Shown here piece by piece: positions 8,448 through 62,139 of a DNA stretch of 64,000 nucleotides. The first letter of the stretch is position 1, and each line of letters opens with the position of its first letter. The notes beneath the pieces were generated by a model. It worked only from the letters and a program-made list of their open reading frames with translations, made no database searches and had not been told where the DNA came from. The position numbers and the translations under genes are program-made. This stretch comes from Patescibacteria group bacterium (GTDB taxonomy: Bacteria > Patescibacteriota > Microgenomatia > Daviesbacterales > UBA10151): positions 5,333-69,332 of the forward strand of contig JAMCSY010000011.1 of NCBI GenBank assembly GCA_023379125.1, given 5' to 3'.

Positions 8448-9755
8448 ATGACTGACAGCCCGGATACTCAAGAAAACAATTCTCAAAAACGTATTACTAC
8501 AACTCGTCGAAAATTGTTAGTTGCGACAGCAGCTGCTACACCGACTCTTTTGGCTGCTGGTAATTTAGTGAAAGCTTTTGTCCAGGAGGCAAATAAAGCA
8601 AATACTCCGTATAAAGCACCAACAAAAAATCCTCCCACTGCCACGCCAGCTACTCATACTCAATCAGAAAGAGTGATTGCAACAACCCCAACTGTCTCTG
8701 CTAATATTACAGAAAAAGCACCTATGGAGAATCCCTTGCAGCAGGTGCTTAAATTGCCTCTAGAATCTAGTGAGAGACAAAGCGCAGAGGCAGATATTGT
8801 GACCAAGGCGCAAAGCTTGCAGCAAATCGATCAAGCTTTGTGGGTTGTTAATAATATGAATTTAAGAGCTCAATTAATCGAAAAAAGGTATCAACTAAGA
8901 TCACAACGCAAGGATAATCTAAAACCTCTAAATCAAGCAGAAACTAAATGGGCCCTAGACCACGAACTTCACCCAGAAGATATTGCAATTGCCCAAGAAG
9001 CCTACACTAAGGCCAGCACAATTATTGCCAACTTACTGACTGATAAAAGTCACCCTTTTCGGCCTGACATTGATCTACAAATCCAAAGAGGCAGACTACC
9101 TCAATCTTCTCAACAACTCCTCTTAGCCCAACAAATGATGATCAATAGTGGTGGTATGGCTACTTTGTTATCCACAGAAACTGGAGTGGGCAAACAATTC
9201 CAGATTCACAAAGCAGGAGAAAGTAGGATTGTTTCCGTGGCTTTAAGCAATATTGGCCAAACTCCAGCCATCCAGGTAAACAAGCTTTATAGTGAAGAGA
9301 AAAAGCAATCTCAATATCAACAAATGGCTGATATTTTTCAGCACACCACAGGTTTAGTAATTTCATCTGAGCAAATTCCTGGATCTGGAGGTCAAGCTCC
9401 TGGGGACATAAGTGGGGGAGCAGTTTCCGTGCAAATGTTACCAGACTCGATATTGGATATTGAGCAAGATGTTTACCGGGCTACTGGAAAATACTTGAAT
9501 TGGGCAGACCCAGTAGAGAGTGTGGCTCTGGCTTATATTTTCTTAGCCAAGGGCTGGTTGGTTGGACAAGGAGCTCGCTTTGGGTATTGGCGGGGGACAG
9601 TCATAGACCCAAAACAGGGTAACGATGTGGCAGAGGCAATGCGTCAAGATGCTCTAGCTAAGTGGAATCAAGATCAACAGCAACAAAAGAAAATACTCGA
9701 CGCTGCAAATAGCTACTATGCGAAGATTATCGCACTTAATATTTCTAGTTACTGA
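8448..9755 (+). CDS. Hypothetical secreted protein with Tat-like signal (TRRKLLVATAAATPTLLAAG), Gln-rich C-terminus
   Basis: 435 aa ORF; RRxLL twin-arginine-like N-terminus followed by hydrophobic stretch. Confidence 0.45.
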   Translation: MTDSPDTQENNSQKRITTTRRKLLVATAAATPTLLAAGNLVKAFVQEANKANTPYKAPTKNPPTATPATHTQSERVIATTPTVSANITEKAPMENPLQQVLKLPLESSERQSAEADIVTKAQSLQQIDQALWVVNNMNLRAQLIEKRYQLRSQRKDNLKPLNQAETKWALDHELHPEDIAIAQEAYTKASTIIANLLTDKSHPFRPDIDLQIQRGRLPQSSQQLLLAQQMMINSGGMATLLSTETGVGKQFQIHKAGESRIVSVALSNIGQTPAIQVNKLYSEEKKQSQYQQMADIFQHTTGLVISSEQIPGSGGQAPGDISGGAVSVQMLPDSILDIEQDVYRATGKYLNWADPVESVALAYIFLAKGWLVGQGARFGYWRGTVIDPKQGNDVAEAMRQDALAKWNQDQQQQKKILDAANSYYAKIIALNISSY

Positions 9756-11577: not shown

Positions 11578-11721
11578 ATAAGCTTCCCCAGACTGAAAAG
11601 TCCGGGGTTTTTCTCTGGCTAGCTTTCAAGCGCTTCGCTACCCGTTTGCCGGTAAAGCTTGAAGCCTACTTCGTCTACATCCACGAGCTGAGAGCTCGTG
11701 GTTTTGACGAAGCGGTTATAA
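11578..11721. repeat. Structured intergenic repeat, family 1, copy 2
   Basis: Contains the GNRA-loop hairpin CCCCAGACU-GAAA-AGUCCGGGG. A nested hairpin CCACGAGCU-GAGA-AGCUCGUGG is enclosed by the outer stem CTTCGTC..GACGAAG. Lies in the divergent region between the ABC exporter and tyrS. Confidence 0.7.
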
Positions 11722-31404: not shown

Positions 31405-31435
31405 TTTCTTAGAAAGATAAGTAGTAGAGAAGAAA

Positions 31436-31858
31436 TTACTGAGCGTTCCTCTTACAGAACCAGTTTCCAGAAGTAGTAGCACCCCCACCCACACTAGTGG
31501 TTGCATTACCTGTTGAGTTTTCCAGTGAAGCACAGAAAACAAAGCCATTAGAAGAATTAAATGAGGTAGCATAATTAGCACCACCAGGAGAAGGATTAGT
31601 TGGTACTGTTTGATCAGAAAACCAAGTCCCGTTTAATGATGTTGGATAACCAGAACCAGAAACATAATTGGCTTCCATTGCTCCAGCCATGGATTGAATA
31701 TCAGCCTTTCTTTTGGCATCTCGCGCTTTATTTAAAGTTCCAGTATAAATAGTAATCCCGATAATACCTAAGATTGCCAAGATTGAAATAACAACTAACA
31801 GCTCAAAAAGTGTAAAACCTTGAGAGTTATTTTTAGTTCTAGGCAAAAATTTTGACAT
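31436..31858 (-). CDS. Type IV pilin, tandem paralog A
   Basis: Preferred start MSKFLPRTKNNSQG|FTLFELLVVISILAILGIIG (the ORF-track start at 31930 overlaps paralog B); C-terminal Cys pair; Ser/Thr-rich segment with NST/NAT. Confidence 0.7.
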   Translation of the reverse strand: MSKFLPRTKNNSQGFTLFELLVVISILAILGIIGITIYTGTLNKARDAKRKADIQSMAGAMEANYVSGSGYPTSLNGTWFSDQTVPTNPSPGGANYATSFNSSNGFVFCASLENSTGNATTSVGGGATTSGNWFCKRNAQ

Positions 31859-31859
31859 A

Positions 31860-32282
31860 TTATTGTGCATTCCTCTTACAATACCAATTACCAGAAGTAG
31901 TAGCACCTCCACCAACACTGGTAGTAGCATTACCTGTTGAATTCTCTAGTGAAGCACAGAAAACAAAACCACTCGAAGTATTAAAAGAAGTCGCATATGT
32001 GGCACCACCAGGAGAAGGATTAGTTGGAACTGTTTGATCAGAGAACCAAGTAGCATTTAACGATGTTGGGTAACCAGAACCAGAAACATAATTAGCTTCC
32101 ATAGCTCCAGCCATTGCTTCTATATCTGCTTTTCTCTTAGCATCTCGAGCTTTATTCAAAGTTCCAGTATAAATAGTAATACCAATAATACCTAATATTG
32201 CTAATATAGAGATTACTACCAAAAGTTCGAAAAGTGTAAAACCTTGAGGATTTGAATTTGTCTTGGGCAGTAGCTTTTTCAT
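31860..32282 (-). CDS. Type IV pilin, tandem paralog B (about 90% identical to A)
   Basis: Preferred start MKKLLPKTNSNPQG|FTLFELLVVISILAILGIIG; the mature N-terminal about 45 aa are identical to A. Confidence 0.7.
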   Translation of the reverse strand: MKKLLPKTNSNPQGFTLFELLVVISILAILGIIGITIYTGTLNKARDAKRKADIEAMAGAMEANYVSGSGYPTSLNATWFSDQTVPTNPSPGGATYATSFNTSSGFVFCASLENSTGNATTSVGGGATTSGNWYCKRNAQ

Positions 32283-33892: not shown

Positions 33893-34113
33893 AGTTAGTA
33901 GTTCATAGATCGGCTGAACTATGAACTGCAAATAATGAACTTATTACTAATCTTATTGTTGACATAGCTGAAAGTTTTAGTCAAGTGTTTAACTTATTTA
34001 AATACATACCTAATATTATGAGTTTAGTAACATTACTTTCAACAAGAAGATACCGCGCTAACGTCAGCCAGTGGTAGATTCTTTGTTGACATAGCTGAAA
34101 GTTTTAGTCAAGT
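33893..34113. promoter_or_regulatory. Pilin upstream control region: two copies of TTGTTGACATAGCTGAAAGTTTTAGTCAAGT (inverted half-sites TTGAC-N16-GTCAA) plus a cluster of GTTCAT/ATGAAC half-sites
   Basis: Exact 31-bp direct repeat at 33956-33986 and 34083-34113; GTTCATA x2 and ATGAAC x2 between 33893 and 33950; located 100-260 bp upstream of the pilin start at 33851. Confidence 0.5.
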
Positions 34114-34132
34114 CCTTTAGTTTTAGCAAAAC

Positions 34133-35341
34133 TTACTGAATATTAGTAGTGAGCTGGTAAATGGGCAAAATAATTGATATCACTAAAAAGGCCACCCCCA
34201 CACCCAAGATTACTAAGATGATAGGTTCAATTAAGGTTGTTACATTTTTAAGTTGATTATCTGACTCTGTCTCAAAATAGTTTGCCAATCTGATCATAAT
34301 CTCATCAATTTTACCAGTCTCTTCGCCAGTCTTAATCATTTGTCCCACAATCCTTGGAAATACTGGCATAGCCAGTATTTGGCTAGAAAGAGTTAAACCA
34401 CGTTCAACTCCTTTATATGCTGTTTCTAAACCACTTTGAAAAACACTATTTCCTACAATTTCTCCGACAATTTTAATTGATTCCAAAATCGGAATGCCAG
34501 AAGAAGCAAGTAAGCCAAAAGTACGAGTAAAATTGGTTAGCGTTACTAAAGTAACAATCCGTCCAACTACAGGCAGTTTGAGAACGACTGTATCATATTG
34601 ATATTTACCGCTCGGAGATTTGATATAACGGCGAAAAGTTAAGATCCCTACCACTAAAATAAGCAGAATTATCCACCAGTAAGTCAACATGAAGTTAGTG
34701 AAGGCAAGCAATATTTTGGTCGGTAGTGGTAAATCTAAGCCAGAATCTGTATAAAGATTCATCAGCTTAGGCATCACGAAAAAGATCATAATCAGCATCA
34801 CACCAGCCATCATCAACAACACAACGATTGGATAAATCATGGCTCCTCTGATTTTGCTACGGAATTCACGATCTTTCTCCAAGTTATCAGCAAGTTGCAA
34901 AAGTACAGTATCCAACTTACCGGAGGCTTGACCAGCTCTGACTAATTTACTATAGAGTTTAGGAAATACCTCTGGGTATTTTTCCAGGGAAGTCGCAAAA
35001 TCCATTCCACCTTTGACATCATTAGATATTTCACCAATAATTTTCTGAAAGTTCTTGTCAGACTGCTGCTCTTGTAAAATATCCAGAGCTTCAGAAAGCA
35101 CTAAGCCTGCTTCTACCATCGTGGCTAACTGCCTGGTAAAAACCACCACATCTGAATAAGCCACTTTGGAGAAAAACTTTTCAACAAAATTATCTTTATT
35201 AGTATTTTTAACTTTCAGTGAAATCACAATTAATTTTTTGCGGCGGAGGAGGGTAGCCGCTTGACGATCATCGGTAGTCTCAATTTCTCCTTTGTGATAA
35301 CTGCCAGTCAAGTCTTTGGCAATGTAATTAAATATCGGCAT
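34133..35341 (-). CDS. pilC: Type IV pilus inner-membrane platform protein PilC (GspF family)
   Basis: 402 aa; two GspF repeats, 3-4 TM segments. Confidence 0.8.
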   Translation of the reverse strand: MPIFNYIAKDLTGSYHKGEIETTDDRQAATLLRRKKLIVISLKVKNTNKDNFVEKFFSKVAYSDVVVFTRQLATMVEAGLVLSEALDILQEQQSDKNFQKIIGEISNDVKGGMDFATSLEKYPEVFPKLYSKLVRAGQASGKLDTVLLQLADNLEKDREFRSKIRGAMIYPIVVLLMMAGVMLIMIFFVMPKLMNLYTDSGLDLPLPTKILLAFTNFMLTYWWIILLILVVGILTFRRYIKSPSGKYQYDTVVLKLPVVGRIVTLVTLTNFTRTFGLLASSGIPILESIKIVGEIVGNSVFQSGLETAYKGVERGLTLSSQILAMPVFPRIVGQMIKTGEETGKIDEIMIRLANYFETESDNQLKNVTTLIEPIILVILGVGVAFLVISIILPIYQLTTNIQ

Positions 35342-46612: not shown

Positions 46613-46894
46613 TTGACTCTTTTTGTGCTACAATTAAAGCCCTTGAGAAAGAAAACTTCTACTAAACATCCTGCCAAGATTTGTGCTGAGTGTGGCAGTG
46701 AACTAATTTTTGTGGAAGAAATCACTATGACAGTTGGCAACGCCCTTTCTCCAGTTACCAAAACTATTTATCATTGTTCTAATCAAACCTGTCAGGAAGA
46801 ATCAGAAAGAAAAGAAGCTCAGCGACGTGAGTTTAGACTACAGCAAGAAACTTTAAAACAAAATCGCCTCAACAACCGTCACAGTACTAAATGA
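46613..46894 (+). CDS. Small zinc-ribbon protein (CAECGSEL..CSNQTCQEE) with basic C-terminus
   Basis: 93 aa; CxxC..CxxxC. Confidence 0.35.
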   Translation: MTLFVLQLKPLRKKTSTKHPAKICAECGSELIFVEEITMTVGNALSPVTKTIYHCSNQTCQEESERKEAQRREFRLQQETLKQNRLNNRHSTK

Positions 46895-47086
46895 ATCCCT
46901 TCCCGCCGTAAACAACTGGGTATCCCTAAAAGGGAAAGTTCTTTCGAGCGTTCATCCACACGGTAAGCCGCAAGGTATTCTCGCCCAAAATAAAGTTCCC
47001 AATCCACACCTTCTGCGAATTTTATACATTTCCCTGCTCTATAAATAAAAGCATGGTAAAGATTTCGCACACTAAAGGTCTGCGCA

Positions 47087-47244
47087 GTTTTGACGAAGCG
47101 GTTATAAGCTTTCCAGACTGAAAGTCCGGGGTTTCCTCTGGCTAGCTTTCAAGCGCTTCGCTACCCGTTTGCCAGTAAAACTTGAAACCTACTTCGTCTA
47201 CATCCACGAGCTCTCAGCTCGTGGTTTTGACGAAGCGGTTATAA
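47087..47244. repeat. Structured intergenic repeat, family 1, copy 3, preceded by a duplicated 20-nt 3'-terminal segment TTTTGACGAAGCGGTTATAA
   Basis: Full copy is about 90% identical to copy 2. The 20-mer occurs at 47087-47107 and again at 47225-47244. Lies 8 bp upstream of nfo. Confidence 0.7.
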
Positions 47245-51218: not shown

Positions 51219-52445
51219 CTAGCTATTTCTTCTTACGATACAGTGTAGTTTTTATAATCTGTAGTTGTCAACAGTTTTTGGCATATTTTTTGCAGTTATG
51301 CAAACTAAATAGGGAAGTGTCTAAATCAAGACTTACAAGATCATCAAAATATAATCTCCAATCACGCGTTGCTTAATTCATAAACAACTAGGTAGTTGAC
51401 AACTTATGTTGGAATCAAACTTTAATATTGTGCGACATCGAGAATTTTTATTTATAATCTTACAAACGGCTTTTAAAAACCAAAAATGTTCAAGAAATCA
51501 GGTCTAAGTTAAACATAGTGAAAAAGATCAAAATATAATATTGCGTAATAGCACTAGTTAAAACGACTTTAGTACAAAGAGCGCACATCTTTTAAAACCC
51601 AACAACTAAACCTCAGCTAAATAGTTTTTCTGCTTTAGTCAATACAATCCTAAGAAGAATGTACAAATCAAGTTCTTTACACAATCAGCCATCCTAACCT
51701 ATTTTATCCAAAATAAGACTCCTAGAGGTATTTAGCCTCGAGGCCCGTAAAGGCCCCTAAAACGGCTGGAAACGGGGGAAGATGACTAGTTAGTCATCTA
51801 TAGATTAGACTGTCTCAAAGCCCTAAGTGTTAATTTTAAGAAGTTATTAATAGAGGGGCAAAAATTATCGAAAAAAATTGATAGGAAATTAGTAAAAATA
51901 GGTACAGGTTTATTAAACTTACAAAATTAATTATTTTTTATTAAATACTTTTTTAAAGCAAGTTGACCACTTCTCCGGCTACTAGGCATATACGTCGTCG
52001 TATAAGGTACATTGTGCGACATACTAGTTGGGAAGGCTTGACCCCTCTGAAGAGAGAATGGCCTCTTAATTGAGAAAACAATAAGACGGTGAGGCTAACT
52101 CACTCATGCTACATACATATCTGTGTACCACTACTAGGACTCTCCTCTCAGTAACTATACCTATAGTTTTCACGCGTGGAAACAACTTTGGGTTTTTTAT
52201 AGCAGAGAAATGTAAGAGAGTACTCTGCTCTTGGGTGTGATTGCTTTTATCATGCTCCACGAGCTACACCATATTTTATATTTTCTGGCCTCCAATAATA
52301 CCCTATAATTCTTAGTTATCCACAGTGTACTAACTATATCAGACTGTATCAACTATATTATAGGCTTATAATATTAGCACTCTTCCCTACCTTGTGTTAA
52401 CCTATTATTTTTTGGGTTATCAAATTGTTAACTAAACTACTAAGC

Positions 52446-52625
52446 CTATCCCACCCAAGAGGTTGTGATATGAGCTAAAGCTCTATCACTTTCAGGATAT
52501 GAGCTAAAGCTCTATCACTTTCAGGATATGAGCTAAAGCTCTATCACTTTCAGGATATGAGCTAAAGCTCTATCACTTTCAGGATATGAGCTAAAGCTCT
52601 ATCCCGCCCAAGAGGTTGTGATATA
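52446..52625. repeat. Perfect tandem array: 29-bp unit ATATGAGCTAAAGCTCTATCACTTTCAGG x4 plus a 21-bp partial unit, flanked on both sides by CTATCCC(A/G)CCCAAGAGGTTGTGATAT
   Basis: Direct reading; units at 52468, 52497, 52526, 52555 and partial at 52584; no intervening spacers. Confidence 0.85.
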
Positions 52626-53402
52626 GGCAATGAGGAAAATTGGGATTGCCCACTTGAGAAAACCTACCACTACTTCCCTGTTTAACCTATCCTTCAAAGC
52701 TTCTAGGCTGATACCCAAAGTAATATATAGTGTGGCTGTTAAAACCAGAGAAATCATGGCTTTTGAAATAGGCCAAAAAGATAGGGCCAAACCCACTTCT
52801 CCAATAATGAGTGAAATAATAGCTGAGTACATTAATAATCTACCAGATACACCAGCCATATCAATTGTCCAAAGTACCTGCAAAGTTAAGGGAAAGGATA
52901 GTAGAAAAACCATTAATCCATTCCACAAAAACAAAAGATCCAGTGAGTAAACTACATTAAAGAGCAAAGAAGTTGTGACAATGGTCAGAACAAAAATTAC
53001 TGTCGAGGAAACACGATAAAGCGGAATGGTTCTGATGGCGGAAATATTAAAAATATTTTGGGATAGTAGCAGAGTATAAAAAGATAAACCAAAAATTAAT
53101 GCTGCTAATATCCTCGACCAGGTACTGAGTAATAAAAAATAGTAGCCAGAAACTGATAAGGTTAAAAAAGTGGGTAGTATTAGTAAAATGATTGCCTTTA
53201 GTTTACTTAACCCCTCCCACAGTGACCAAACTGATAGAAGATAAGCAAGGACTGTCAACCCAGCAATATAATGATAACGTAAATAAAAGGGTACAAATTG
53301 GGTGCCAAATAAGCCTAAAGATAAGATAACCGCCGTAACAATAATTTTTTCTCGCTTGCTGAAGAATGGTTTACTATTTATGGAATTTAATTTTTGAGCC
53401 AT
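52599..53402 (-). CDS. Polytopic integral membrane protein, hypothetical
   Basis: About 7 TM segments; start MAQKLNS at 53402 preferred over ORF-track 53471, which overlaps ruvC. Confidence 0.45.
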   Translation of the reverse strand: MAQKLNSINSKPFFSKREKIIVTAVILSLGLFGTQFVPFYLRYHYIAGLTVLAYLLSVWSLWEGLSKLKAIILLILPTFLTLSVSGYYFLLLSTWSRILAALIFGLSFYTLLLSQNIFNISAIRTIPLYRVSSTVIFVLTIVTTSLLFNVVYSLDLLFLWNGLMVFLLSFPLTLQVLWTIDMAGVSGRLLMYSAIISLIIGEVGLALSFWPISKAMISLVLTATLYITLGISLEALKDRLNREVVVGFLKWAIPIFLIAYITTSWAG

Positions 53403-53409
53403 ATATTTT

Positions 53410-53955
53410 TCAAGCTGCTGCCATCTTGAGGACATGACAAATCGCAATAGCCAAAGCATCAGTGGCATCATCTAAATGTCCACCCTTTGGAGCAACTAAC
53501 ACACTTCTCTTTTCCCCATTGCTACCTAAGAATTTTCTCACCCCTTCATAGACCTGTTTTTTATCTGCTCTACCTGAACCTGCAACCATTAATTTAACCT
53601 GTAATCCAGTATATTCATGAACAGGAATATTATGCTGAGCAGCAGCGAGCATAACCACCCCTCTCGCCTGCCCCACAGCAATAGCTGTTTTAGTATTAGC
53701 CCCAAAAAACAACATCTCAATCACAATCATATCAGGCTGGTATTTCTCAATCACTAAGTTTAACTGGTTATAAATCATCAACAATCTCTCTTGGGCAATT
53801 CTATCTTTGGGTGTGGAGATATTATCGTAGTGGATTAAATCAAGATCATAATCAAATTTCCTACCTAAGATATCTTCTGGAACTTTGATTAAACCATAAC
53901 CAGTAGTAGCTGTACCTGGATCTATACCCAAAATAACCATCAATCTAGTATACAC
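53410..53955 (-). CDS. ruvC: Holliday junction resolvase RuvC
   Basis: 181 aa; ILGIDPGTATTGYGLI and catalytic acidic residues. Confidence 0.85.
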   Translation of the reverse strand: MYTRLMVILGIDPGTATTGYGLIKVPEDILGRKFDYDLDLIHYDNISTPKDRIAQERLLMIYNQLNLVIEKYQPDMIVIEMLFFGANTKTAIAVGQARGVVMLAAAQHNIPVHEYTGLQVKLMVAGSGRADKKQVYEGVRKFLGSNGEKRSVLVAPKGGHLDDATDALAIAICHVLKMAAA

Positions 53956-53961
53956 CTTTCG

Positions 53962-54669
53962 CTAGCTTGTTACCCCAGTTAAGTGACCATCTGGATGATA
54001 ATCAGGTACAAACGCAAAATCATCTTTTATCAGCCTATATCCATTTTGCACCGAGGAGGCATCTGATATCGTCTCAATTCTGTAGGAAGACTTACTAAGA
54101 TGTTTTCTTAACTTGGAAGCATAAACTCTTAGCGAATCATCGATCTCTTCTATCCCCCAAGTAGGCCAGATGTGTTGGCGAAAATCTCTTTTGCTGACCT
54201 TTATTCCTGGACTTTGCCAAAGTCTGTACAATATTTTCATCTCAGTTAAGTCAAGATCTAATCCTTGCACTCCTAAACCATAACCAATTCTAGTTTTTGA
54301 AAAAATTGCTGTCGGCAACTCGTGACCTCTGTTTATTTTACAGATGTATAGGGAGACAGCGCAGCGAGCATTACGGGAGACGTCTCCTCGAGAGCAAGAT
54401 ACTACCAAACGATCTTTTGAAACAAGATAACCTGCATGTTTACCTAACAGTAAAACAAGAGCATCTTTAATTCGCAATTCCTGTGATCTATCGCTTAGGT
54501 GGATTGATTGTTCAGCCAAGGAACCTATTTCTGCACTATTGGCTGCTCTGGACATCAAGCCTATTTCGTGTAACCATTCTTGGTAACAAGGGTCTAGATG
54601 AGGAGCCTCCTGAATATTATGAAACCGATTAATTATTCTCTCAAACTCTACCGACTGCATCTTCAGCAA
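53962..54669 (-). CDS. Protein with C-terminal OmpR/PhoB-type winged-helix DNA-binding domain and a non-receiver N-domain
   Basis: 235 aa; C-terminal LYRLWQSPGIKVSKRDFRQHIWPTWGIEEIDDSLRVYASKLRKHL resembles trans_reg_C; TTG or internal ATG start. Confidence 0.45.
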   Translation of the reverse strand: MLKMQSVEFERIINRFHNIQEAPHLDPCYQEWLHEIGLMSRAANSAEIGSLAEQSIHLSDRSQELRIKDALVLLLGKHAGYLVSKDRLVVSCSRGDVSRNARCAVSLYICKINRGHELPTAIFSKTRIGYGLGVQGLDLDLTEMKILYRLWQSPGIKVSKRDFRQHIWPTWGIEEIDDSLRVYASKLRKHLSKSSYRIETISDASSVQNGYRLIKDDFAFVPDYHPDGHLTGVTS

Positions 54670-54674
54670 TTTTT

Positions 54675-54806
54675 AAATGAAGCTCCACGGCCTAACGGCC
54701 GTGGTATCCTCTCAGCTTCACAGCTTTAGCTGTGATAATTTAAGCATTCATCCATTTTCCAACGAGCATGGTTTTCTGCTTTCGCTGATAAATATCCCAG
54801 GTTGCT
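54675..54806. repeat. Structured intergenic repeat, family 2, copy A
   Basis: About 85% identical to 58655-58786. Hairpins CCACGGCC-TAAC-GGCCGTGG and TCACAGCT-TT-AGCTGTGA. Lies between the yebC stop and the 53962-54669 start. Confidence 0.7.
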
Positions 54807-54830
54807 AGCCTGAATCTTGCTGCTAAACTT

Positions 54831-55613
54831 TCAAAGGATATTTTCTGGAATATCAAAATTAGCAAAAACTTTTTGAATATCATCTTGGTCTTCTAATTTC
54901 TCGGTAAAATCTAATATTTTTTGGGCTATTTCTTTATCATTAATCTGCATAGTAGTTGTAGGTTTAAACACTAACCCAGATTCCTCTACCGCAAAGCCAG
55001 ATTGAGTAATCTTATTACCCATAGTATATAGTTCTGGGCCTTCTACATAGATTAAATACTTATTCTCACCCTCTTCTGTAAAAGCATCAACATCCTCTGC
55101 TCCCAAATCAATTAGCTCCAGCATCTCATCATCTACCTCTCCACCTTTGCCCTTTACTTCATCTACCTCTCCACCTTTGCCCTTTACTTTTAATTCTCCC
55201 TTTCTTTCAAACATATAAGCTACACTTCCTTGCCCTCCCAAAGCCCCTCCACTGTGTTCAAACAGGCTTTTGACTATTTGGTTGGTTCTTAACTTATTAT
55301 CTGTCACACCTTCCACCAAAAAGGCTACTCTACCAGGACCAAAACCCTCATATAAAACTTCTTCAAGTGTTTGGCCAGGTAAATTACCCAGACCGCGATC
55401 AATAGCTCGCTGGACATTTTCCTTAGGCATATTTATCTTGCGGGCTTCTTCTAAAGCCTCACGCAGGCGAGGATTTGTATTTGGATCACCCGAATTACCC
55501 AATCTAGTGGCAATAGTGATGGCATTGGCAATTTTCGTAAACATCATCCCACGTTTAACATCAGCCACACCTTTTTGTCTTTTAATTTGCGCCCATTTTG
55601 AATGTCCCGACAT
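54831..55613 (-). CDS. yebC: YebC/PmpR-family transcriptional regulator with in-frame 10-aa tandem duplication
   Basis: 260 aa; MSGHSKWAQIKRQKG..MFTKIANAITIA; VKGKGGEVDE x2 is encoded by a 30-bp direct DNA repeat at 55128-55187. Confidence 0.85.
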   Translation of the reverse strand: MSGHSKWAQIKRQKGVADVKRGMMFTKIANAITIATRLGNSGDPNTNPRLREALEEARKINMPKENVQRAIDRGLGNLPGQTLEEVLYEGFGPGRVAFLVEGVTDNKLRTNQIVKSLFEHSGGALGGQGSVAYMFERKGELKVKGKGGEVDEVKGKGGEVDDEMLELIDLGAEDVDAFTEEGENKYLIYVEGPELYTMGNKITQSGFAVEESGLVFKPTTTMQINDKEIAQKILDFTEKLEDQDDIQKVFANFDIPENIL

Positions 55614-55763
55614 ATTGTTACTCCTAAATTACATTCAAAAAGAAGCGTATTAGCGATTCATTTTGAATGACCTGACTTATATTCCCCTCCTTTGAAATGA
55701 CGTTCAAAAGAGGTGCTTCAGCAACTCATTTTGAATGTCCCGACATATTGTTACTCCTAAATT
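55594..55763 (-). promoter_or_regulatory. Reiterated yebC translation-initiation region: three copies of TCATTTTGAATG(A/T)CC(T/C)GAC; the distal copy (55727-55763) equals RBS + ATG + the first 6 codons
   Basis: On the mRNA strand AATTTAGGAGTAACAATATGTCGGGACATTCAAAATGA gives MSGHSK-stop. The true gene has TGG (Trp) in place of TGA. Confidence 0.5.
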
Positions 55764-55900
55764 GGCATTATTTGTTGGCGATCTCTGCCATTATTACAGG
55801 ACTAATCTTAATCGTATTAGCCTCTTTTTTCAAGTCCATTCATCTAAAAAGGAGCAAACCTTTATCTGATAAAGATCCCAGCTAAGCTGAGTCACATTGC

Positions 55901-56686
55901 TTGACAAGAGATATTGCAATTACTTATACTCCTTTGCTAATGGATGATTCATCTGCCTCCCTCAAACAGCGGGCAATTACTGCTGCACTATCTGCAAATT
56001 GGGAAGAGGCTTTAGCAATTAACCAAGAAATTTTGACCAGTGAACCCAACAACGTTGATGCACTCAATCGTATCGCCCGCGCTTATTTTGAGCTGGGTGA
56101 TTTTAAATTATCCAAAAAAAACTATCAAGAAAGTCTCAAAATAGATCCTTATAATCAGATTGCCTATAAATTTATCAAAAGAATTGAGGCTTGTGCCAAA
56201 AAAGGAGTTAAATTGCCTAATGGGAAAAATGGTAAAAACCATTCTATCTTAGAAACAATTAGCAATTTATCTGATCTTTTTATTGAAGAGCCTGGTAAAA
56301 CCAAAGTGGTGAATTTACTGAAAGTTGCTGAGCCAAAAAAACTTTCTTTTTTATCTCCAGGTACACCTGTATTACTAGTACTTAGGAATCGTTGTATTGC
56401 AGTGACTGATCAGAATTCTGATTATTTAGGAGTGTTGCCTGATGATTTATCACATCAGTTAACCAGATTAATTAATGGTGGTAATAAATACCAAGCTTTA
56501 ATTAAAACTGTAAAGATTAATGCCATTGCTATTCTCATTAGAGAAATTTATCGTTCAACTCGTTTTAGGAATCAGCCTTCATTTTTGGAAAACAGTGGAG
56601 AAACTTTTAGTTACTCCTCGGATAACATTTATTTTGGCGACACAGAAGATTCTAGTGAGGATACAGAAAACGAAGAAGAAAGCTAG
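55901..56686 (+). CDS. TPR-repeat protein with acidic C-terminus
   Basis: 261 aa; N-terminal 100 aa has 2-3 TPR-like repeats (ALAINQEIL.., ALNRIARAYFELGDF.., KKNYQESLKIDPYN). Confidence 0.45.
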   Translation: MTRDIAITYTPLLMDDSSASLKQRAITAALSANWEEALAINQEILTSEPNNVDALNRIARAYFELGDFKLSKKNYQESLKIDPYNQIAYKFIKRIEACAKKGVKLPNGKNGKNHSILETISNLSDLFIEEPGKTKVVNLLKVAEPKKLSFLSPGTPVLLVLRNRCIAVTDQNSDYLGVLPDDLSHQLTRLINGGNKYQALIKTVKINAIAILIREIYRSTRFRNQPSFLENSGETFSYSSDNIYFGDTEDSSEDTENEEES

Positions 56687-57489
56687 TTAACTAAATTGCA
56701 GATTTCTGTATTACTCAAAAATACGATTCCATTTTCTTTAGACTGACTTAAGGGTTGACCAATTACCTGAGTAAAAAACGCTGTCCCAATCGCTCTTTCT
56801 CGATAATAGGTAGCAATTTGCTCACTAGTAAAACGCTGTGGCAACATCGATAAACCAGATAGCCGATAATTGTTAATTAGTTGATCTTTTAGTTCACCCA
56901 CACGGCTGGCTGTCCCAACCAGTGATAAGCCACGCAGTGAGGCACAAAACATTGGCTCAGAATCAGCTTGAGTTGGTTCCCTTCGTAAACTGCCAACTAA
57001 CTTGCCAACTGGACTTTGCTGAACTGGTTGTAATACTATTTGCCACCAATATTGCTCATTTTCATCTAATTTTGGAGGTTTGATCTGTTTACTACCCGCT
57101 TGGTAAGTCAGTGAGCGCTTACCTACTTCCCAAGCATTTAATTGTGAGTCAGGGTCTTTCACAGCAGAAGTTTGAGCATAATCTTCCAATTCTAATAAGT
57201 CGAGTTTGGTCCCAAAAAGATTTACTACCTCTTCAGGAGCAAAAATTGCCAATGCTTCCCTATCCCCTTTATAGAGTTTCTCTAAAGAAACAATTAGCCC
57301 TCGTGGAATAATTGTTTGGTAAATTTGTGCCAGCACTTCTGTTGTTAACTCGGCTGGCTTTCTAATTAAATAAACTGAATATTTAGTGGGTAAATTAAAA
57401 GGAGTTTCTCGAAAATCACTCATTGATCGAACAGCTAGAATCAACGAGATGCCAACAACTAAAAAGAATAATAAAAACCAGATAACCAT
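56683..57489 (-). CDS. Hypothetical membrane-anchored protein
   Basis: 268 aa; N-terminal TM; overlaps neighbours by 4 nt. Confidence 0.4.
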   Translation of the reverse strand: MVIWFLLFFLVVGISLILAVRSMSDFRETPFNLPTKYSVYLIRKPAELTTEVLAQIYQTIIPRGLIVSLEKLYKGDREALAIFAPEEVVNLFGTKLDLLELEDYAQTSAVKDPDSQLNAWEVGKRSLTYQAGSKQIKPPKLDENEQYWWQIVLQPVQQSPVGKLVGSLRREPTQADSEPMFCASLRGLSLVGTASRVGELKDQLINNYRLSGLSMLPQRFTSEQIATYYRERAIGTAFFTQVIGQPLSQSKENGIVFLSNTEICNLVN

Positions 57490-57494
57490 AAATT

Positions 57495-58610
57495 TTATCT
57501 GTTAGAGTGATCTGTATAAAAATCCTCACCGAGAATGATTGTAATATCCGCGCGATTGAGATCAACAGCTTCACCTAACTTGCCAGAAATTATATCACAA
57601 CTACCCTGATTAGCTGAGAAAAATAGACTACTAGAACGCTGCAAACAGCTTGGCCGAAATGCTTGAGTGGCTCTCTGCTTAGTCCAGCTTTGTTTGCCTA
57701 GTATCAAAGTATTTGCTAAATCATCCTGGCTGTTGGCAGTAAAAATCACCCGTCCTCCTAAATTAGTAATCACCCGAGCGGCTTGTTCAGCTAGTAATGG
57801 ATGAGCAGTGGAGTTATAAATTCCCACAGTCAAACCTTCTTGTTCAATCTGATTATCATACATATGAGCCATCACGTACTGATCAGTAACTGATTGTTTG
57901 AGACTCAATACACGACTACCGTCAGCCAGAACTTGCCAATTGGTAGCTTCACTTGATTGCAAATCAAGATTATCAACTTTGTCACTTCGAATTGAGCTCA
58001 AAACATGTGCTAGTTTCACAAGCTCGACCAAACTAAGATCTGTCTTGCTTTGCTGTATTAAATTCAAACTATCCCAGGGTGATTTACGAATCCTATCTAA
58101 CATTTCACTCACCGGAGTCTGAGATAAATCCTCGGTAAAAATTAAATAACCGTCAACAGGTATGGCCAAATTTAAAGCCAGAGTTTCTTTCAGCAACTGT
58201 GCTCCCATGGGAGGTTTTTCATCTTGACCCAAGCCATAAATACTGCTCACCAACCACTGACCAAAACCATGTGGTAAATCAAGATAGGCTTTATCAGGAA
58301 CAGTAATAATAGTGGCAGCTTTATCAATAGGGTTAACTGAGACTAGATAAATCTGATCACTTTTGATAGCTAAATTAATTGTGTTTGTGCCATTCCAACT
58401 GTAATATTTATCTACTGGCAGGGCATCAGGAGCATAAGGTTGTCCTAAACCCACAATAAAACTAATTAGCTTACCAATAATAATCAGCAAAACCACTAAA
58501 CCTAGGGCAAATAAGCCTAAGCCCAGTTTACTGCGCGAGGAAGACGAACGACGAATACTTTTCCTTTTATTAACTTTTTTTAAGACGGATCTAGCCATAC
58601 TAATTCTCAC
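57495..58610 (-). CDS. LytR-CpsA-Psr (LCP) family cell-envelope phosphotransferase
   Basis: 371 aa; N-terminal basic tail + TM; NTINLAIKSDQIYLVSVNPIDKAATIITVPDKAYLD resembles LCP core. Confidence 0.65.
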   Translation of the reverse strand: MRISMARSVLKKVNKRKSIRRSSSSRSKLGLGLFALGLVVLLIIIGKLISFIVGLGQPYAPDALPVDKYYSWNGTNTINLAIKSDQIYLVSVNPIDKAATIITVPDKAYLDLPHGFGQWLVSSIYGLGQDEKPPMGAQLLKETLALNLAIPVDGYLIFTEDLSQTPVSEMLDRIRKSPWDSLNLIQQSKTDLSLVELVKLAHVLSSIRSDKVDNLDLQSSEATNWQVLADGSRVLSLKQSVTDQYVMAHMYDNQIEQEGLTVGIYNSTAHPLLAEQAARVITNLGGRVIFTANSQDDLANTLILGKQSWTKQRATQAFRPSCLQRSSSLFFSANQGSCDIISGKLGEAVDLNRADITIILGEDFYTDHSNR

Positions 58611-58654
58611 CGGCTCCGTCTATTCCAGTGGTTTTTCTGCTCTTAACTCTAGCA

Positions 58655-58786
58655 AATGAAGCTCCATAGCCTAACGGCTAGGTATCTTCTCAGCTTCACA
58701 GCTAAAGCTGCTGATTGAAAGCATTTATCCATGTTCCAACAAGCATGGTTTTCTGTTCTCGCTCATAAAATTATTCCCAAGGTTGC
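58655..58786. repeat. Structured intergenic repeat, family 2, copy B
   Basis: Hairpin TAGCC-TAAC-GGCTA, with CG to TA compensatory changes relative to copy A. Sits immediately upstream of the LCP gene. Confidence 0.7.
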
Positions 58787-58905
58787 TTTTTCTTACCAAC
58801 AATTTGTGGGGGCGTAAAAACAGGAGCACTGGAAAACTTGACCGGTTGCTCACCTTTTTTCTTTTTTTTCTTTTCCCCTTTAAAATATGATCCAAAACCT
58901 GCCAT
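58771..58905 (-). CDS. Possible small Lys-rich protein (44 aa, MAGFGSYFKGEKKKKKKGEQPVKFSSAPVFTPPQIVGKKKQPWE)
   Basis: Strong SD GGAGGTGGTGA 4 nt upstream of ATG; not in ORF track (short). Confidence 0.3.
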   Translation of the reverse strand: MAGFGSYFKGEKKKKKKGEQPVKFSSAPVFTPPQIVGKKKQPWE

Positions 58906-58987
58906 CTATCACCACCTCCTATGGTTAATTACTAGTTTAGAAAAAATCTGAAGCTAAATCAAGTTGTTTTAAGATCACTGGTTAATT

Positions 58988-60703
58988 TTATTCTAGAGCA
59001 AAGTGGTTTCTGGCTAATTTATGCAGTTCAATTTCTGAGCGGTCTTTCATAAAGCTTAAGTTAGGCCAATGGGCAGCTAAAATCTGAGCCATAAAAACAC
59101 CAGCTACAATTTCTGGCATAATCACATAATCAGCACCTGATTGATAAAGCATTTCTGCATCAACAACATTGGTTGCCCTGACAATCACAATTGTTTCTGC
59201 TCTTCTCGTCTTCACCTCAGTTAACAAAACTAAATTATCATCTACTCCAGGGGCTGTTGAGACAACCAATTTAGCGTGATCTAAGTTAACAAAATCTAAA
59301 ATCTCTGGATCTCCAATATCTCCATACATGGCATGAATACCCCTACTAATCAAATTTTGAATCACTCTGGGATTAAAGTCTAAAATCAAAAAAGGTACTT
59401 TTTCCTTTTCTAAAAACTTAACTATTTCACCACCCATCAAATGACCCCCCACTACTACTGCATGTTCTGTCAGATCTGAGGCAGTTTTTTTCTCCAGTTG
59501 ATGAGTTAACTTAGTATGCTCAAAAAAAGTAACTAAGGGTTTTAAAACTGGATAAATATTACGCGAGTAGATAATCATAATTGAAGAAACAATTATCGAG
59601 ATCACGCCAATTAAGGCCATCGCTGTTAATGAACTTTCTGAGACCAAACCTGTTTTTAAACCCAGCACAATCACGATTAAGGAAAACTCTGAAATTTGTG
59701 ATAAGTTGATGGCTGTTTGGAAAATGGTATGTTTACGAAAACCAAACAGACCTAAGACAAACATAAAGATTAATGGTTTAATCAAAAGTGCATAAAGTGT
59801 AAAAACTATAATCACAGGTAAGACACTAACTACTTGGTTAAAACTAACCTGTGAACCAAGATAGACAAAAAATAAGGTGACAAAGAAATCTCTTAATGGT
59901 TTTACCTTGCCCTGAATTTCATAATGAAATGGTGAATTTGCTAAAGCCACACCTGCCAAAAAGGCTCCGATGACTACGGAAAAACCCAGCAGCAAGGCAA
60001 ATGCGACATAGATAAAACACCAAGCCAAAGCTACCAGTAATAAAAGTTCGGAAGACCTTGCTACTACTTTAAAAATACCAGCGAGGAAGGTGTTTGATAA
60101 CCACAGAGCTAAGCCAATTAACAAAATCCCTTTGACTAACAGTAAAATTAAGGGCAAGTTTTGTGATAGACCTAAACCTAAAGCCGAGGAAGAGAGTGTC
60201 ATTAGCATCAACAAAATAATTGCCACCAAGTCCTCCAGTAATAAGATGCCTACTGATAATTTGCCATAGAGCGAAGTTAGATCCTTCTTTTCTAGCAATA
60301 ACTTAACTACGACAATCGTTGAGGAAAAAGAGAGGCCTACCCCCAAATAGAAACTTTCAGTAGGTCCAAAACCCAAAGCCTTAGCGATAAAAAAGCCTGC
60401 TAACAAAGAAATCAAGATTTGTCCCAAACCCGCGACGATAATAGGTTTGCCCAAGTTTTTAATCTCTTTGAAATCTAACTCCATGCCAACTAAAAATAGG
60501 ACAAAAGCAATTCCAATATCAGGGAAAAAAGTTAGAGCAAAAGAGTGTGAAATATCAAGAACTTTAACAAAAGACAGTAAAACTCCAGCCAATAGATAAG
60601 CTACCACCAAAGGCAGCCTCATTTTACTAATAAAATAACCAAAGGCAGCAGACAAGCCAATCACTACTGCCAACTGGATAAACAAGGAATCTGTGACACC
60701 CAT
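58988..60703 (-). CDS. Monovalent cation:proton antiporter (CPA2/Kef-type) with C-terminal RCK/TrkA-N domain
   Basis: 571 aa; about 12 TM segments then VVVGGHLMGGEIVKFLEKEKVPFLILDFNP Rossmann-like. Confidence 0.75.
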   Translation of the reverse strand: MGVTDSLFIQLAVVIGLSAAFGYFISKMRLPLVVAYLLAGVLLSFVKVLDISHSFALTFFPDIGIAFVLFLVGMELDFKEIKNLGKPIIVAGLGQILISLLAGFFIAKALGFGPTESFYLGVGLSFSSTIVVVKLLLEKKDLTSLYGKLSVGILLLEDLVAIILLMLMTLSSSALGLGLSQNLPLILLLVKGILLIGLALWLSNTFLAGIFKVVARSSELLLLVALAWCFIYVAFALLLGFSVVIGAFLAGVALANSPFHYEIQGKVKPLRDFFVTLFFVYLGSQVSFNQVVSVLPVIIVFTLYALLIKPLIFMFVLGLFGFRKHTIFQTAINLSQISEFSLIVIVLGLKTGLVSESSLTAMALIGVISIIVSSIMIIYSRNIYPVLKPLVTFFEHTKLTHQLEKKTASDLTEHAVVVGGHLMGGEIVKFLEKEKVPFLILDFNPRVIQNLISRGIHAMYGDIGDPEILDFVNLDHAKLVVSTAPGVDDNLVLLTEVKTRRAETIVIVRATNVVDAEMLYQSGADYVIMPEIVAGVFMAQILAAHWPNLSFMKDRSEIELHKLARNHFALE

Positions 60704-61991: not shown

Positions 61992-62139
61992 AGCAATACT
62001 ATATATAACACATCAGGGATCTGCTTCGCCAGTAGCTATTTTGGATACCTGGCTAGTTTAATGAATCTCCATTGACTCACACCAGTGTCATCTTCTAGAC
62101 CTCATCTTCGATAAGTCCCGTCTACAGTGGGAACCTATT

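What the first reader, a model, noticed from the sequence alone, without database searches (positions are those of the whole stretch)
54675..54806. Family-2 structured element (2 copies) upstream of a wHTH protein and an LCP gene, with CG to TA covariation
The segments 54675-54806 and 58655-58786 are about 85% identical. Each lies between an upstream minus-strand stop (yebC; a 44-aa Lys-rich ORF) and the start of a downstream minus-strand gene (the OmpR-type wHTH protein; the LytR-CpsA-Psr protein). Copy A has perfect hairpins CCACGGCC-TAAC-GGCCGTGG and TCACAGCT-TT-AGCTGTGA, nested in GAAGCT..AGCTTC. In copy B the first helix is TAGCC-TAAC-GGCTA. That is two coordinated CG to TA pair changes, which preserves base pairing and argues for a functional RNA or DNA structure. 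A conserved CATGGTTTTCTG block is also present. The element could be an attenuator or leader, or a protein-binding cruciform.
Basis: seen in the sequence. Interest (0 to 1): 0.6.

Follow-up and report, generated by a model that had tools for sequence, protein, structure and literature searches.

The report
Two copies of a mini-transposon
The two similar hairpin-rich segments are copies of a roughly 111-base, gene-less mobile element of the IS200/IS605 (IS608-like) type that is scattered through candidate-phyla-radiation bacteria and sometimes sits in frame inside protein genes; they are not a regulatory RNA for the genes next to them.

Summary
Nine further distinct copies were found in other Patescibacteria/CPR contigs. 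All have the same sharp ends, TTAT|CAGC...GGAGCTTCAT|, and unrelated flanks. Seven lie in frame inside called protein genes, including a transaldolase. Two 8-bp hairpins covary strongly (5 of 8 pairs each); the rest is almost invariant. The layout matches the single-strand transposon IS608 point for point:
- There are no inverted repeats and no recognisable target duplication.
- Insertion is 3' of TTAT, the IS606 target.
- Subterminal hairpins sit 16 nt from the left end and 8 nt from the right end.
- The four bases 5' of each hairpin (AANA, GANA) are complementary to TTAT and TCAT by the IS608 guide/cleavage rule.
- The same AT and AG dinucleotides follow the hairpins.

A second repeat family in the window has the same design. 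The best reading is a non-autonomous IS200/IS605-type element (mini-IS or PATE) moved in trans by a Y1 transposase. That enzyme was not found. This is a new member of a known kind and of moderate interest.

The parts
54677..54787 (-). Copy A of the element proper (111 nt, CAGC...GGAGCTTCAT)
   Evidence: Covariance-model score 128 bits.
54788..54791 (-). Copy A: TTAT immediately 5' of the element (target / left cleavage motif, 'TAM')
   Evidence: TTAT precedes all 11 distinct copies although the flanks are otherwise unrelated. TTAT is the IS606 target (PMC2993954).
54772..54775 (-). Copy A: left guide tetranucleotide AAAA, directly 5' of the left hairpin
   Evidence: Positions 1, 2 and 4 are invariant A in the 9 aligned full-length copies and only position 3 varies; L006, which was left out of that alignment, has AAAG. 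The bases are complementary to T-3, T-4 and T-1 of TTAT under the IS608 rule.
54752..54771 (-). Copy A: left subterminal hairpin (P1 / IPL-like), decayed in A, followed by AT
   Evidence: 5 of 8 pairs covary across copies. It is a perfect 8-bp stem with a GTAA loop in L014, L001 and L007.
54719..54734 (-). Copy A: central hairpin P2, CACAGC-TAAA-GCTGTG
   Evidence: The stem is nearly invariant, so it has no covariation support. Its loop and 3' arm can alternatively pair with the 5' segment CAGCNAAAGC; one compensated change supports that pairing in L015.
54705..54708 (-). Copy A: right guide tetranucleotide GATA, directly 5' of the right hairpin
   Evidence: GANA in all copies, with only position 3 varying. 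G pairs with C-3, and A with T-4 and T-1, of TCAT under the IS608 rule.
54685..54704 (-). Copy A: right subterminal hairpin (P3 / IPR-like), CCACGGCC-GTTA-GGCCGTGG, followed by AG
   Evidence: 5 of 8 pairs covary.
54677..54680 (-). Copy A: TCAT, the last 4 nt of the element (right cleavage motif, 'TEM'), 8 nt after the hairpin foot
   Evidence: Invariant in all copies.
58656..58764 (-). Copy B of the element proper (109 nt), preceded by TTAT at 58765-58768. P1 is at 58729-58748, P3 (with a bulge) at 58664-58682, guides AAAA at 58749-58752 and GATA at 58683-58686, and TCAT at 58656-58659.
   Evidence: Covariance-model score 106 bits.
46891..46993 (-). Probable old, decayed copy of the same family (TTAT|...GAATA-CC..GG-ATGAACGCT...GGGATA-CCC..GGG-AAGGGATTCAT)
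   Evidence: Covariance-model score 24.3 bits, E about 0.002; alignment. Low to moderate confidence.
62061..62112 (-). Possible decayed short copy (..TAGAAGATGA-CACTGG..CAATGG-AGATTCAT)
   Evidence: Covariance-model score 17.7 bits, E about 0.075; alignment. Low confidence.

Best explanation
The two segments are copies of a non-autonomous, gene-less transposable element of the IS200/IS605 family, IS608/IS606-like, of the kind called mini-IS or PATE.

Proposed mechanism:
- Only one strand is active, here the window's minus strand.
- A dimeric Y1 (HUH) tyrosine transposase encoded elsewhere binds the two subterminal hairpins, P1 as the left and P3 as the right, in single-stranded DNA.
- The cleavage sites are read by base pairing, not by the protein. 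The left site is the flanking TTAT, 16 nt 5' of P1. The right site is the terminal TCAT, 8 nt 3' of P3. Each pairs with the four bases just 5' of its hairpin: AANA on the left and GANA on the right.
- The element leaves as a single-stranded circle and re-inserts 3' of another TTAT, with no target duplication.

Because the element is 3n long and one subfamily has an open frame, insertions at TAT|AAA inside genes survive as 37-38-residue peptide inserts.

Shown here: the anatomy, the target motif, the absence of inverted repeats, the guide/cleavage complementarity, the hairpin covariation, and the dispersal to unrelated sites and genomes.

Inferred: the enzyme, the single-stranded intermediate, and whether the element is still active. 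Copies A and B both have a damaged left hairpin, and B a bulged right one, so they may be inactive relics.
For: 1. Dispersal. There are 11 distinct copies with identical sharp boundaries, TTAT|CAGC...GGAGCTTCAT|, and unrelated flanks, in at least 9 different contigs or samples.
2. In-frame insertions. Seven copies lie in frame in called ORFs of unrelated proteins; six of them are at Y|..H|K(I), that is TAT|element|AAA. In the transaldolase P0004, recognisable transaldolase sequence lies in the same ORF on both sides of the insert, the N-terminal match being weak on its own.
3. No terminal inverted repeats and no recognisable target duplication.
4. IS608 code. In IS608, guide position 1 pairs with cleavage-site base -3 and position 2 with base -4, A-2 is conserved, and the 2 nt 3' of the hairpin foot (RE: A,G; LE: A,T) form triplets (PMC3201880; PMC5934647). 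In this element:
   - The left site TTAT has guide A-A-N-A and is followed by AT.
   - The right site TCAT has guide G-A-N-A and is followed by AG.
   - Only the non-pairing guide position 3 varies among the aligned copies.
5. Covariation between families. Family 1 in the same window has the same architecture (16 nt and 8 nt spacings). Its right end is TTAT and its right guide starts with A in copy F1a, instead of G. One copy is followed by a 16-nt left-end fragment inserted exactly after its terminal TTAT.
6. TTAT is the IS606 target and the commonest left cleavage motif in the IS605 group. Mini-IS605/606 and PATE derivatives are documented.
7. Both hairpins covary (5 of 8 pairs each), keep a CC/GG foot and resemble each other within a copy.
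8. The active strand is the G-rich strand, which is the sense strand of co-oriented genes. This fits insertion into the lagging-strand template.
9. One element-bearing contig (L015) encodes a Y1_Tnp protein 5.5 kb away.
Against: - No cognate transposase and no full-length autonomous element with these ends was found. The window has no Y1 transposase by tblastn with three queries, which is a weak test.
- The only Y1 gene seen (L015) is RAYT-like. It scores 46.6 bits against a cut-off of 80 and is flanked by its own unrelated 27-nt palindromes.
- No empty-site allele was recovered, so insertion is inferred from unrelated contexts rather than seen directly.
- The spacings differ from IS608: 16 against 19 nt, and 8 against 10 nt.
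- The pairing of guide position 4 with base -1 is my reading of the IS608 sequences, not quoted from the papers.
- L006 has left guide AAAG next to TTAT, which gives a G-T pair.
- The central module (ATGAATGCTT...CACAGCTTTAGCTGTGAAGCTGAGAAGA) is almost invariant across genomes. Known transposase requirements do not explain this.
- A and B share about 20 nt of left flank, which simple excision and insertion does not predict.
- All 11 copies are sense to the neighbouring or host genes, which would also fit a function at the RNA level.
Confidence: 0.75

Rival explanations
1. A cis-regulatory RNA (leader, attenuator or riboswitch-like switch) in the 5' UTR of the wHTH and LCP-like genes. Alternative pairings would control read-through or translation.
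For: - The structure on the transcribed strand is conserved and covarying.
- All copies are sense to the flanking genes.
- Mutually exclusive pairings exist: the 5' segment CAGCNAAAGC against the P2 hairpin. The alternative is a perfect 10 bp in L001 and L015, with one compensated change.
- Single-sequence folds are more stable than shuffles, z -5.1 for A and -2.7 for B.
Against: - The downstream and upstream genes are unrelated across copies.
- One copy precedes a tRNA gene that appears, by inspection, to have its own promoter.
- Seven copies are translated in frame inside ORFs.
- The boundaries are sharp and carry a conserved 4-nt flank motif.
- There is no Rfam match, even at E up to 10.
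- No convincing terminator or RBS-sequestering geometry was found. Terminator-like sites were 5 found against 4.0 expected.
- The sister Family 1 copy F1b and a second family in L015 lie antisense to their neighbouring genes.
Confidence: 0.04
2. The same mobile element (PATE), but its invariant central and right part also encodes a compact guide-RNA scaffold (an omega/reRNA). This would be used in trans by a TnpB-type nuclease, with the 3' flank acting as the guide. This adds to the transposon explanation rather than replacing it.
For: - PATEs are reported to often keep omega-RNAs that are used in trans (PMC10055086).
- The non-hairpin module GCTGTGAAGCTGAGAAGA and the tail AGCTTCAT are nearly invariant while the hairpin stems drift.
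- Sense orientation in host transcription units would supply transcription.
Against: - No TnpB or OrfB gene appears among the precomputed Pfam labels of the loci fetched by protein look-up. The window and loci L001-L006 were not screened for TnpB.
- The whole element (111 nt) is shorter than typical TnpB omega-RNA scaffolds; this rests on my own knowledge.
- No Rfam IS605-orfB-type hit was found.
- The conservation could instead reflect transpososome requirements or recent spread.
Confidence: 0.1
3. A REP/REPIN-like domesticated repeat handled by a single-copy RAYT-type Y1 enzyme, rather than a derivative of a true insertion sequence.
For: - The only Y1 protein found near a copy is RAYT-like (NF047646, E 3e-12) and is flanked by palindromes, as RAYT genes are.
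- The copies are short, hairpin-rich and mostly intergenic.
Against: - The RAYT-flanking 27-nt palindrome is unrelated to P1 and P3.
- The element has asymmetric left and right ends with two hairpins in direct order, not an inverted REP pair.
- There is no GTAG-type motif next to the hairpins.
- It inserts into coding sequence.
- Its cleavage and guide layout follows IS608.
Confidence: 0.08
4. A local segmental duplication within this genome that happens to contain palindromes, with no wider family.
For: A and B are 4 kb apart, lie in the same orientation, and share about 20 nt of extra 5' flank.
Against: - Nine other distinct copies exist in other contigs.
- A is closer to L014 (89%) than to B (82%).
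- The flanking genes of A and B are unrelated.
Confidence: 0.01

Closest known systems
IS608 / IS606 (IS200/IS605 family, Helicobacter pylori) and their mini-IS605/mini-IS606 derivatives
   Same: - No inverted repeats and no target duplication.
- Strand-specific.
- Subterminal hairpins at both ends.
- The left cleavage site is a flanking tetranucleotide (TTAT, as for IS606; TTAC for IS608) and the right site is inside the element (TCAT here, TCAA in IS608).
- Guide tetranucleotides 5' of each hairpin are complementary by the same positional rule.
- The same AT and AG dinucleotides lie 3' of the left and right hairpins.
- Gene-less derivatives made of the two ends are known (PMC3201880, PMC5934647, PMC2993954).
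   Different: - The spacings are 16 and 8 nt, against 19 and 10.
- At 111 nt the whole element is shorter than the H. pylori mini-IS, which carry 100-150 bp from each end.
- No parent IS or transposase has been identified.
- The host is CPR/Patescibacteria.
- The hairpin stems are perfect 8-bp stems with tetraloops, rather than imperfect stems with an extrahelical T.
- It is often found in frame in genes.
PATEs (palindrome-associated transposable elements) of haloarchaea, Geobacillus and others
   Same: They are non-autonomous IS200/IS605-type elements without genes, moved in trans, and present in multiple diverged copies (PMC3119063 listed; PMC10055086).
   Different: PATEs are reported to often carry an omega-RNA, which has not been shown here. 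The lineage and sequence are different.
Rickettsia palindromic elements (RPEs)
   Same: They are short palindromic repeats of about 100-150 nt. They occur both between genes and in frame inside protein-coding genes, where they add a peptide segment. This comparison rests on my own knowledge of Ogata et al. 2000.
   Different: The mechanism of RPE mobility is unknown and no IS608-type end code has been described for them. The host clade and sequence are different.
REP/BIME elements and REPINs with RAYT transposases
   Same: They are hairpin repeats thought to be handled by a Y1 HUH enzyme. A RAYT-like gene with flanking palindromes occurs in one element-bearing contig.
   Different: REPINs are inverted pairs of one palindrome with a conserved adjacent tetranucleotide and are extragenic. 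This element has distinct left and right ends in direct order and a defined TTAT target.

Membership tests
IS200/IS605-family non-autonomous element (mini-IS / PATE) | No terminal inverted repeats | tested here: met
   The 5' end CAGCTAAAGC and the reverse complement of the 3' end (ATGAAGCTCC) are unrelated.
IS200/IS605-family non-autonomous element (mini-IS / PATE) | No target-site duplication; insertion 3' of a specific tetra- or pentanucleotide that stays in the left flank | tested here: met
   TTAT precedes all 11 copies and the right flanks vary (AAA in 7 of 11; TTA, TTG, AGG, ATA). Six in-frame inserts read TAT|element|AAA or ATA. Caveat: the AT of the flank and the AT of the terminal TCAT make a 2-nt duplication formally impossible to exclude, and no empty site was recovered.
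IS200/IS605-family non-autonomous element (mini-IS / PATE) | Subterminal hairpins at both ends, similar to each other, at fixed distances from the cleavage sites | tested here: met
   P1 starts 16 nt after the left junction and P3 ends 8 nt before the right end. This holds in all full-length copies. Both have 8-bp stems with a CC/GG foot and 3-4-nt loops, and both covary.
IS200/IS605-family non-autonomous element (mini-IS / PATE) | Guide tetranucleotide 5' of each hairpin complementary to its cleavage site (IS608 rule: guide 1 with -3, guide 2 with -4; A at -2; 2 nt 3' of the foot form triplets) | tested here: met
   The left pair is AANA with TTAT and the right pair is GANA with TCAT. AT follows P1 and AG follows P3. 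Only guide position 3 varies among the aligned copies. Family 1 has a TTAT right end with right guide AAAA in copy F1a. One exception: L006 has left guide AAAG.
IS200/IS605-family non-autonomous element (mini-IS / PATE) | A cognate Y1 (HUH) TnpA in the same genome, or a full-length parent IS with the same ends | tested here: inconclusive
   None was found in the window or the loci by tblastn. One RAYT-like Y1_Tnp gene lies in L015, but with different flanking palindromes.
IS200/IS605-family non-autonomous element (mini-IS / PATE) | Strand bias: the active strand lies on the lagging-strand template | tested here: inconclusive
   The active strand of A and B is the G-rich strand; GC skew of the + strand is -0.10 to -0.13 at 48-64 kb. 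All 11 copies are sense to their genes. Both measures are confounded with gene orientation, and no origin or terminus is known.
IS200/IS605-family non-autonomous element (mini-IS / PATE) | Single-stranded excision and integration by the transposase | not testable with these tools
   This needs biochemistry or genetics.
Cis-regulatory RNA (riboswitch / leader / attenuator) | Consistent association with a functionally related set of downstream genes | tested here: not met
   The neighbours include a wHTH protein, a LytR_C protein, a 65-aa ORF in a methyltransferase cluster and a tRNA with a group I intron. Other copies lie inside a beta-lactamase-like protein, a transaldolase, PMT_2 glycosyltransferases and membrane proteins.
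Cis-regulatory RNA (riboswitch / leader / attenuator) | Match to a described RNA family | tested here: not met
   Rfam 15 gave no hit at the gathering score, and no meaningful match at E up to 10, in 54400-59100.
Cis-regulatory RNA (riboswitch / leader / attenuator) | An expression platform (terminator or RBS-sequestering helix) coupled to the conserved fold | tested here: not met
   The distance to the next start codon ranges from about 17 nt (copy A) to more than 55 nt. Terminator-like hits are at chance level.
REP / REPIN with RAYT | Inverted pair of one palindrome with a conserved adjacent tetranucleotide; extragenic only; a flanked single-copy RAYT gene | tested here: not met
   The two hairpins are in direct order with distinct left and right ends, and copies occur inside ORFs. 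The RAYT-like gene's palindromes are unrelated.

The most novel reading that the evidence does not exclude
The element is more than a passive mini-transposon. Its almost invariant non-hairpin module and its constant sense orientation would mean that host read-through transcripts of each copy act as a very small omega/reRNA-like guide RNA, with the 3' flank as the guide. A TnpB-type nuclease or repressor encoded elsewhere in these tiny CPR genomes would use that RNA. In that case each insertion, including those inside genes, would also be an RNA-guided homing or regulatory module.
Probability: 0.1. Interest if true: 0.6.

Novelty: new member of a known kind. Interest (0 to 1): 0.4.

Why it matters
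- It stops a mobile repeat from being annotated as a riboswitch-like leader of a regulator gene and a cell-envelope gene.
- It documents single-strand (IS608-type) mini-transposons in Patescibacteria/CPR. I found no description of such elements there in the searchable literature.
- These elements persist in frame inside housekeeping genes such as a transaldolase, as the palindromic elements of Rickettsia do. That matters for gene calling, for protein-family alignments of CPR proteins, and for understanding how very small genomes tolerate selfish DNA.
- The guide/cleavage complementarity, and its compensating change between two families in one genome, is a compact natural test of the IS608 targeting rule.

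Tried and rejected
- Rfam search at gathering and at permissive thresholds: nothing.
- Protein-coding reading of the element. Six-frame translations are not conserved between copies A and B because the hairpin lengths shift the frame. This reading is rejected for A and B, which carry stop codons, but it led to the finding that other copies are read through in frame.
- Small leader peptide (MLVGKWMNA): not conserved in other copies.
- Known self-cleaving ribozymes such as hammerhead and hairpin: considered by eye. The hammerhead core motif is not matched and there is no Rfam hit.
- Integron attC: rejected, because the element has three separate hairpins rather than one long imperfect one, and the neighbours are housekeeping genes.
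- DGR template and variable repeats: rejected, because the differences are not confined to adenines.
- Viral-contig scans with three patterns and a phage BLAST search: no hits.
- A generic scan of the window for IS608-code-like ends was too permissive, giving 118 hits against about 100 in shuffles. It was discarded as a discovery tool, although it re-found the true ends.
The exhaustive representative search recovered three more cases.
- Looking up a window protein to walk beyond the window gave only a 3.5-kb contig.
- tblastn for Y1 transposases with recalled IS200 and IS608 sequences and the L015 protein: no credible hit in the window.

Full report
**1. Checking the observation**

The two segments are present as described. 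On the minus strand, which is the strand of all neighbouring genes, they align over about 130 nt. Within the element proper, A and B are 82% identical. Two conserved 22-23-mers each occur exactly twice in the 64-kb window, against 0.00 expected.

The gene context is also as stated:
- yebC stop, then copy A, then an orphan Trans_reg_C (OmpR-type wHTH) gene.
- The stop of a 44-aa Lys-rich ORF, then copy B, then a LytR_C-domain gene.

The window belongs to a Patescibacteria (CPR) contig. Rfam has no match, either at curated or at permissive thresholds.

**2. More copies, and what they show**

One scan of GTDB genomes and one of JGI metagenomes, using patterns taken from the invariant core, found homologues in other contigs:
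- L001, in a sugar-methyltransferase cluster.
- L002-L005, one identical short variant lying between an ftsB-like gene and a tRNA gene that contains a group I intron.
- L006, a long variant.

All share sharp ends, 5' TTAT|CAGC ... GGAGCTTCAT| 3', and their flanks are unrelated.

I then translated the element in all six frames and searched the protein databases. This recovered unrelated proteins that read straight through the element in frame:
- a PMT_2 glycosyltransferase of Candidatus Daviesbacteria (P0003);
- a transaldolase (P0004);
- four membrane or unknown proteins (P0005, P0006, P0007, P0009).

Each reads ...Y|QLKQKT...VELH|K..., that is TAT|111 or 114 nt|AAA. In the transaldolase, family-like sequence lies in one ORF on both sides of the insert: a strong match after it and a weak one (including the TTNP motif) before it. 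L006 also lies in frame in a called ORF.

In total there are 11 distinct copies (coordinates). A covariance model built from nine of them re-finds all copies at 52-145 bits and finds nothing else strong in 182 kb of held DNA.

Copy A is closer to L014, from another sample, than to B (89% against 82%). The pair is therefore not a local duplication.

**3. Structure**

On the nine full-length copies, the two 8-bp hairpins P1 and P3 each have 5 of 8 pairs with changes on both sides. Overall 96.9% of cells pair, against 88% in shuffles (0 of 500 as high) and 22-43% when partners are slid.

The other helices are almost invariant and so are uninformative. These are the P2 hairpin, the outer stems AAGCA/TGCTT and AAGCT/AGCTT, and an alternative long-range pairing of the 5' segment with the P2 loop and 3' arm. 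The alternative pairing has one compensated change, in L015.

Conservation runs opposite to a simple hairpin repeat: the stems drift while the linkers, the flank motif and the tail are nearly fixed.

**4. What it is**

The anatomy matches the single-strand transposon IS608 feature by feature.

For IS608, the papers state the following (PMC3201880; PMC5934647):
- The element has no inverted repeats and makes no duplication.
- It inserts 3' of TTAC, which stays in the left flank 19 nt 5' of the left hairpin.
- Its right cleavage site, TCAA, is inside the element, 10 nt 3' of the right hairpin.
- The sites are read by base pairing with the four bases 5' of each hairpin (AAAG and GAAT). Guide base 1 pairs with -3 and guide base 2 with -4, and A-2 is unpaired.
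- The two bases 3' of each hairpin (A,T on the left; A,G on the right) make base triplets.

In this element:
- The left flank is TTAT in all 11 copies, and the left hairpin starts 16 nt later.
- The element ends in TCAT, 8 nt after the right hairpin.
- The guides are A-A-N-A on the left and G-A-N-A on the right. That gives A:T-3 and A:T-4 at the left, and G:C-3 and A:T-4 at the right.
- Only the non-pairing third guide base varies among the aligned copies.
- AT follows the left hairpin and AG follows the right one.

TTAT is the known target of IS606 and the commonest left cleavage motif in the IS605 group. Gene-less mini-IS605/606 and PATE derivatives are documented.

**5. A second family gives an internal control**

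Read that way, Family 1 (11578-11717 and 47104-47240) has the same plan:
- TTAT, then 16 nt ending in AAAA;
- the hairpin CCACGAGCT-NNN-AGCTCGTGG, followed by AT;
- a second hairpin, CCCCGGACT-TTTC-AGTCTGGGG, whose G-T wobble works only on this strand;
- then AAGC and TTAT.

Its right cleavage motif is TTAT instead of TCAT, and its right guide begins with A in copy F1a (AAAA) instead of G; the decayed copy F1b has GAAA. This is a compensating change between the families.

One Family 1 copy is followed, immediately after its terminal TTAT, by the first 16 nt of another left end. That is expected if the right end itself offers a TTAT target.

**6. Mechanism, and its weak points**

The best explanation is a non-autonomous IS200/IS605-type element moved in trans by a Y1 transposase through a single-stranded circle.

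- The orientation fits. The active strand is the G-rich strand at 48-64 kb and is sense to the host genes in all 11 copies, which is the lagging-strand template if genes follow replication. This is confounded with gene orientation, and six of the copies were found with sense-frame peptide queries.
- The in-frame copies fit selection for read-through. They use the single open sense frame and have 3n length, so the element is not removed from the mRNA.

Weak points:
- No cognate transposase or parent IS was found.
- The one Y1 gene seen (L015, 229 aa) is RAYT-like and carries its own 27-nt palindromes.
- No empty site was recovered.
- The invariant central module and the roughly 20 nt of left flank shared by A and B are unexplained.
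- A and B have a decayed left hairpin, and B also has a bulged right hairpin, so they may be relics. Two further decayed copies are likely at 46891-46993 and possibly at 62061-62112.

**7. Rivals**

- A gene-specific leader or attenuator is not supported, because the contexts are heterogeneous, some copies are intragenic, there is no expression platform, and terminator-like hits are at chance level.
- An added omega-RNA role, as reported for many PATEs, cannot be excluded and would explain the invariant module.
- A REP/RAYT-type system is less likely, because the ends are asymmetric and insertion is target-specific.

**8. Novelty**

Searches of the held literature found no description of such elements in CPR/Patescibacteria. 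The kind of element is well known. This family, its CPR hosts and its Rickettsia-like in-frame insertions are new as far as I could check. Interest is moderate.

Noticed in passing
window 11578-11717 (-) and 47104-47240 (-), plus a fragment at 47088-47103: The second repeat family (93% identical over 118 nt) has the same IS608-like plan when read on the minus strand: TTAT|16 nt|CCACGAGCT hairpin|AT ... CCCCGGACT hairpin|AAGCTTAT. Copy F1b is followed by a 16-nt left-end fragment inserted right after its terminal TTAT. F1a ends 5 nt upstream of the ATG of the minus-strand gene 9749-11572.
   Followed up: partly
window 46891-46993 (-) and 62061-62112 (-): Weak covariance-model hits (24.3 and 17.7 bits) that look like old, decayed copies of the Family 2 element. 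The first lies directly next to Family 1 copy F1b.
   Followed up: partly
window 54792-54812 and 58769-58792 (-): Copies A and B share about 20 nt of similarity (AGCAACCTKGGRA..) 5' of the TTAT junction. No copy from any other genome shares it, and simple IS608-type transposition does not explain it.
   Followed up: no
window 52438-52611: About five to six tandem copies of a 29-nt unit, GATATGAGCTAAAGCTCTATCACTTTCAG, each containing a small GAGCT-AAAGCTC palindrome. They abut and overlap the 3' end of the DUF5656 gene (52599-53471, minus strand).
   Followed up: no
window 55129-55188: A perfect 30-nt tandem duplication inside yebC, giving a repeated KGKGGEVDEV peptide in the protein.
   Followed up: no
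window 55594-55763: Direct repeats upstream of yebC: a 37-nt exact repeat (55594-55630 and 55727-55763) and a 43-nt repeat at 77% identity (55638-55680 and 55706-55748). The first copy of the 37-nt repeat overlaps the yebC start codon.
   Followed up: no
window 53962-54660 (-): The wHTH (Trans_reg_C) protein downstream of copy A is an orphan. The only match in 5.8 billion proteins was the protein itself. It sits between yebC and ruvC, which are adjacent in many bacteria (my own knowledge).
   Followed up: partly
L015 2880-3626: A 229-aa RAYT-like Y1_Tnp gene with three copies of a 27-nt imperfect palindrome, ACCTTGAAGGGAGCCTCCTTTAAAGGT. One copy lies upstream, one overlaps the stop codon, and one lies in frame inside the gene, where it encodes TLKGASFEG.
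   Followed up: partly
L015 13610-13719 (-): A further two-hairpin repeat, antisense to its neighbouring genes. Its right end follows the same code (guide GAAA, hairpin CCGCGGAC-TCCA-GTCCGCGG, then AG and 10 nt ending in TCAT). Its left boundary is unclear.
   Followed up: no
L003 5193-5389 (-), L005 7737-7932 (-): A group I intron (Rfam RF00028, 72-76 bits) about 55 nt downstream of the short element variant. It appears to lie within a tRNA gene of this CPR organism.
   Followed up: no
window 31435-32158 and 33956-34150: A 300-nt direct repeat at 85% identity, covering two adjacent small minus-strand ORFs that look like tandem paralogues, and a 68-nt repeat (79% identical) that begins with TTGTTGACATAGCTGAAAG and is spaced 127 nt apart.
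   Followed up: no
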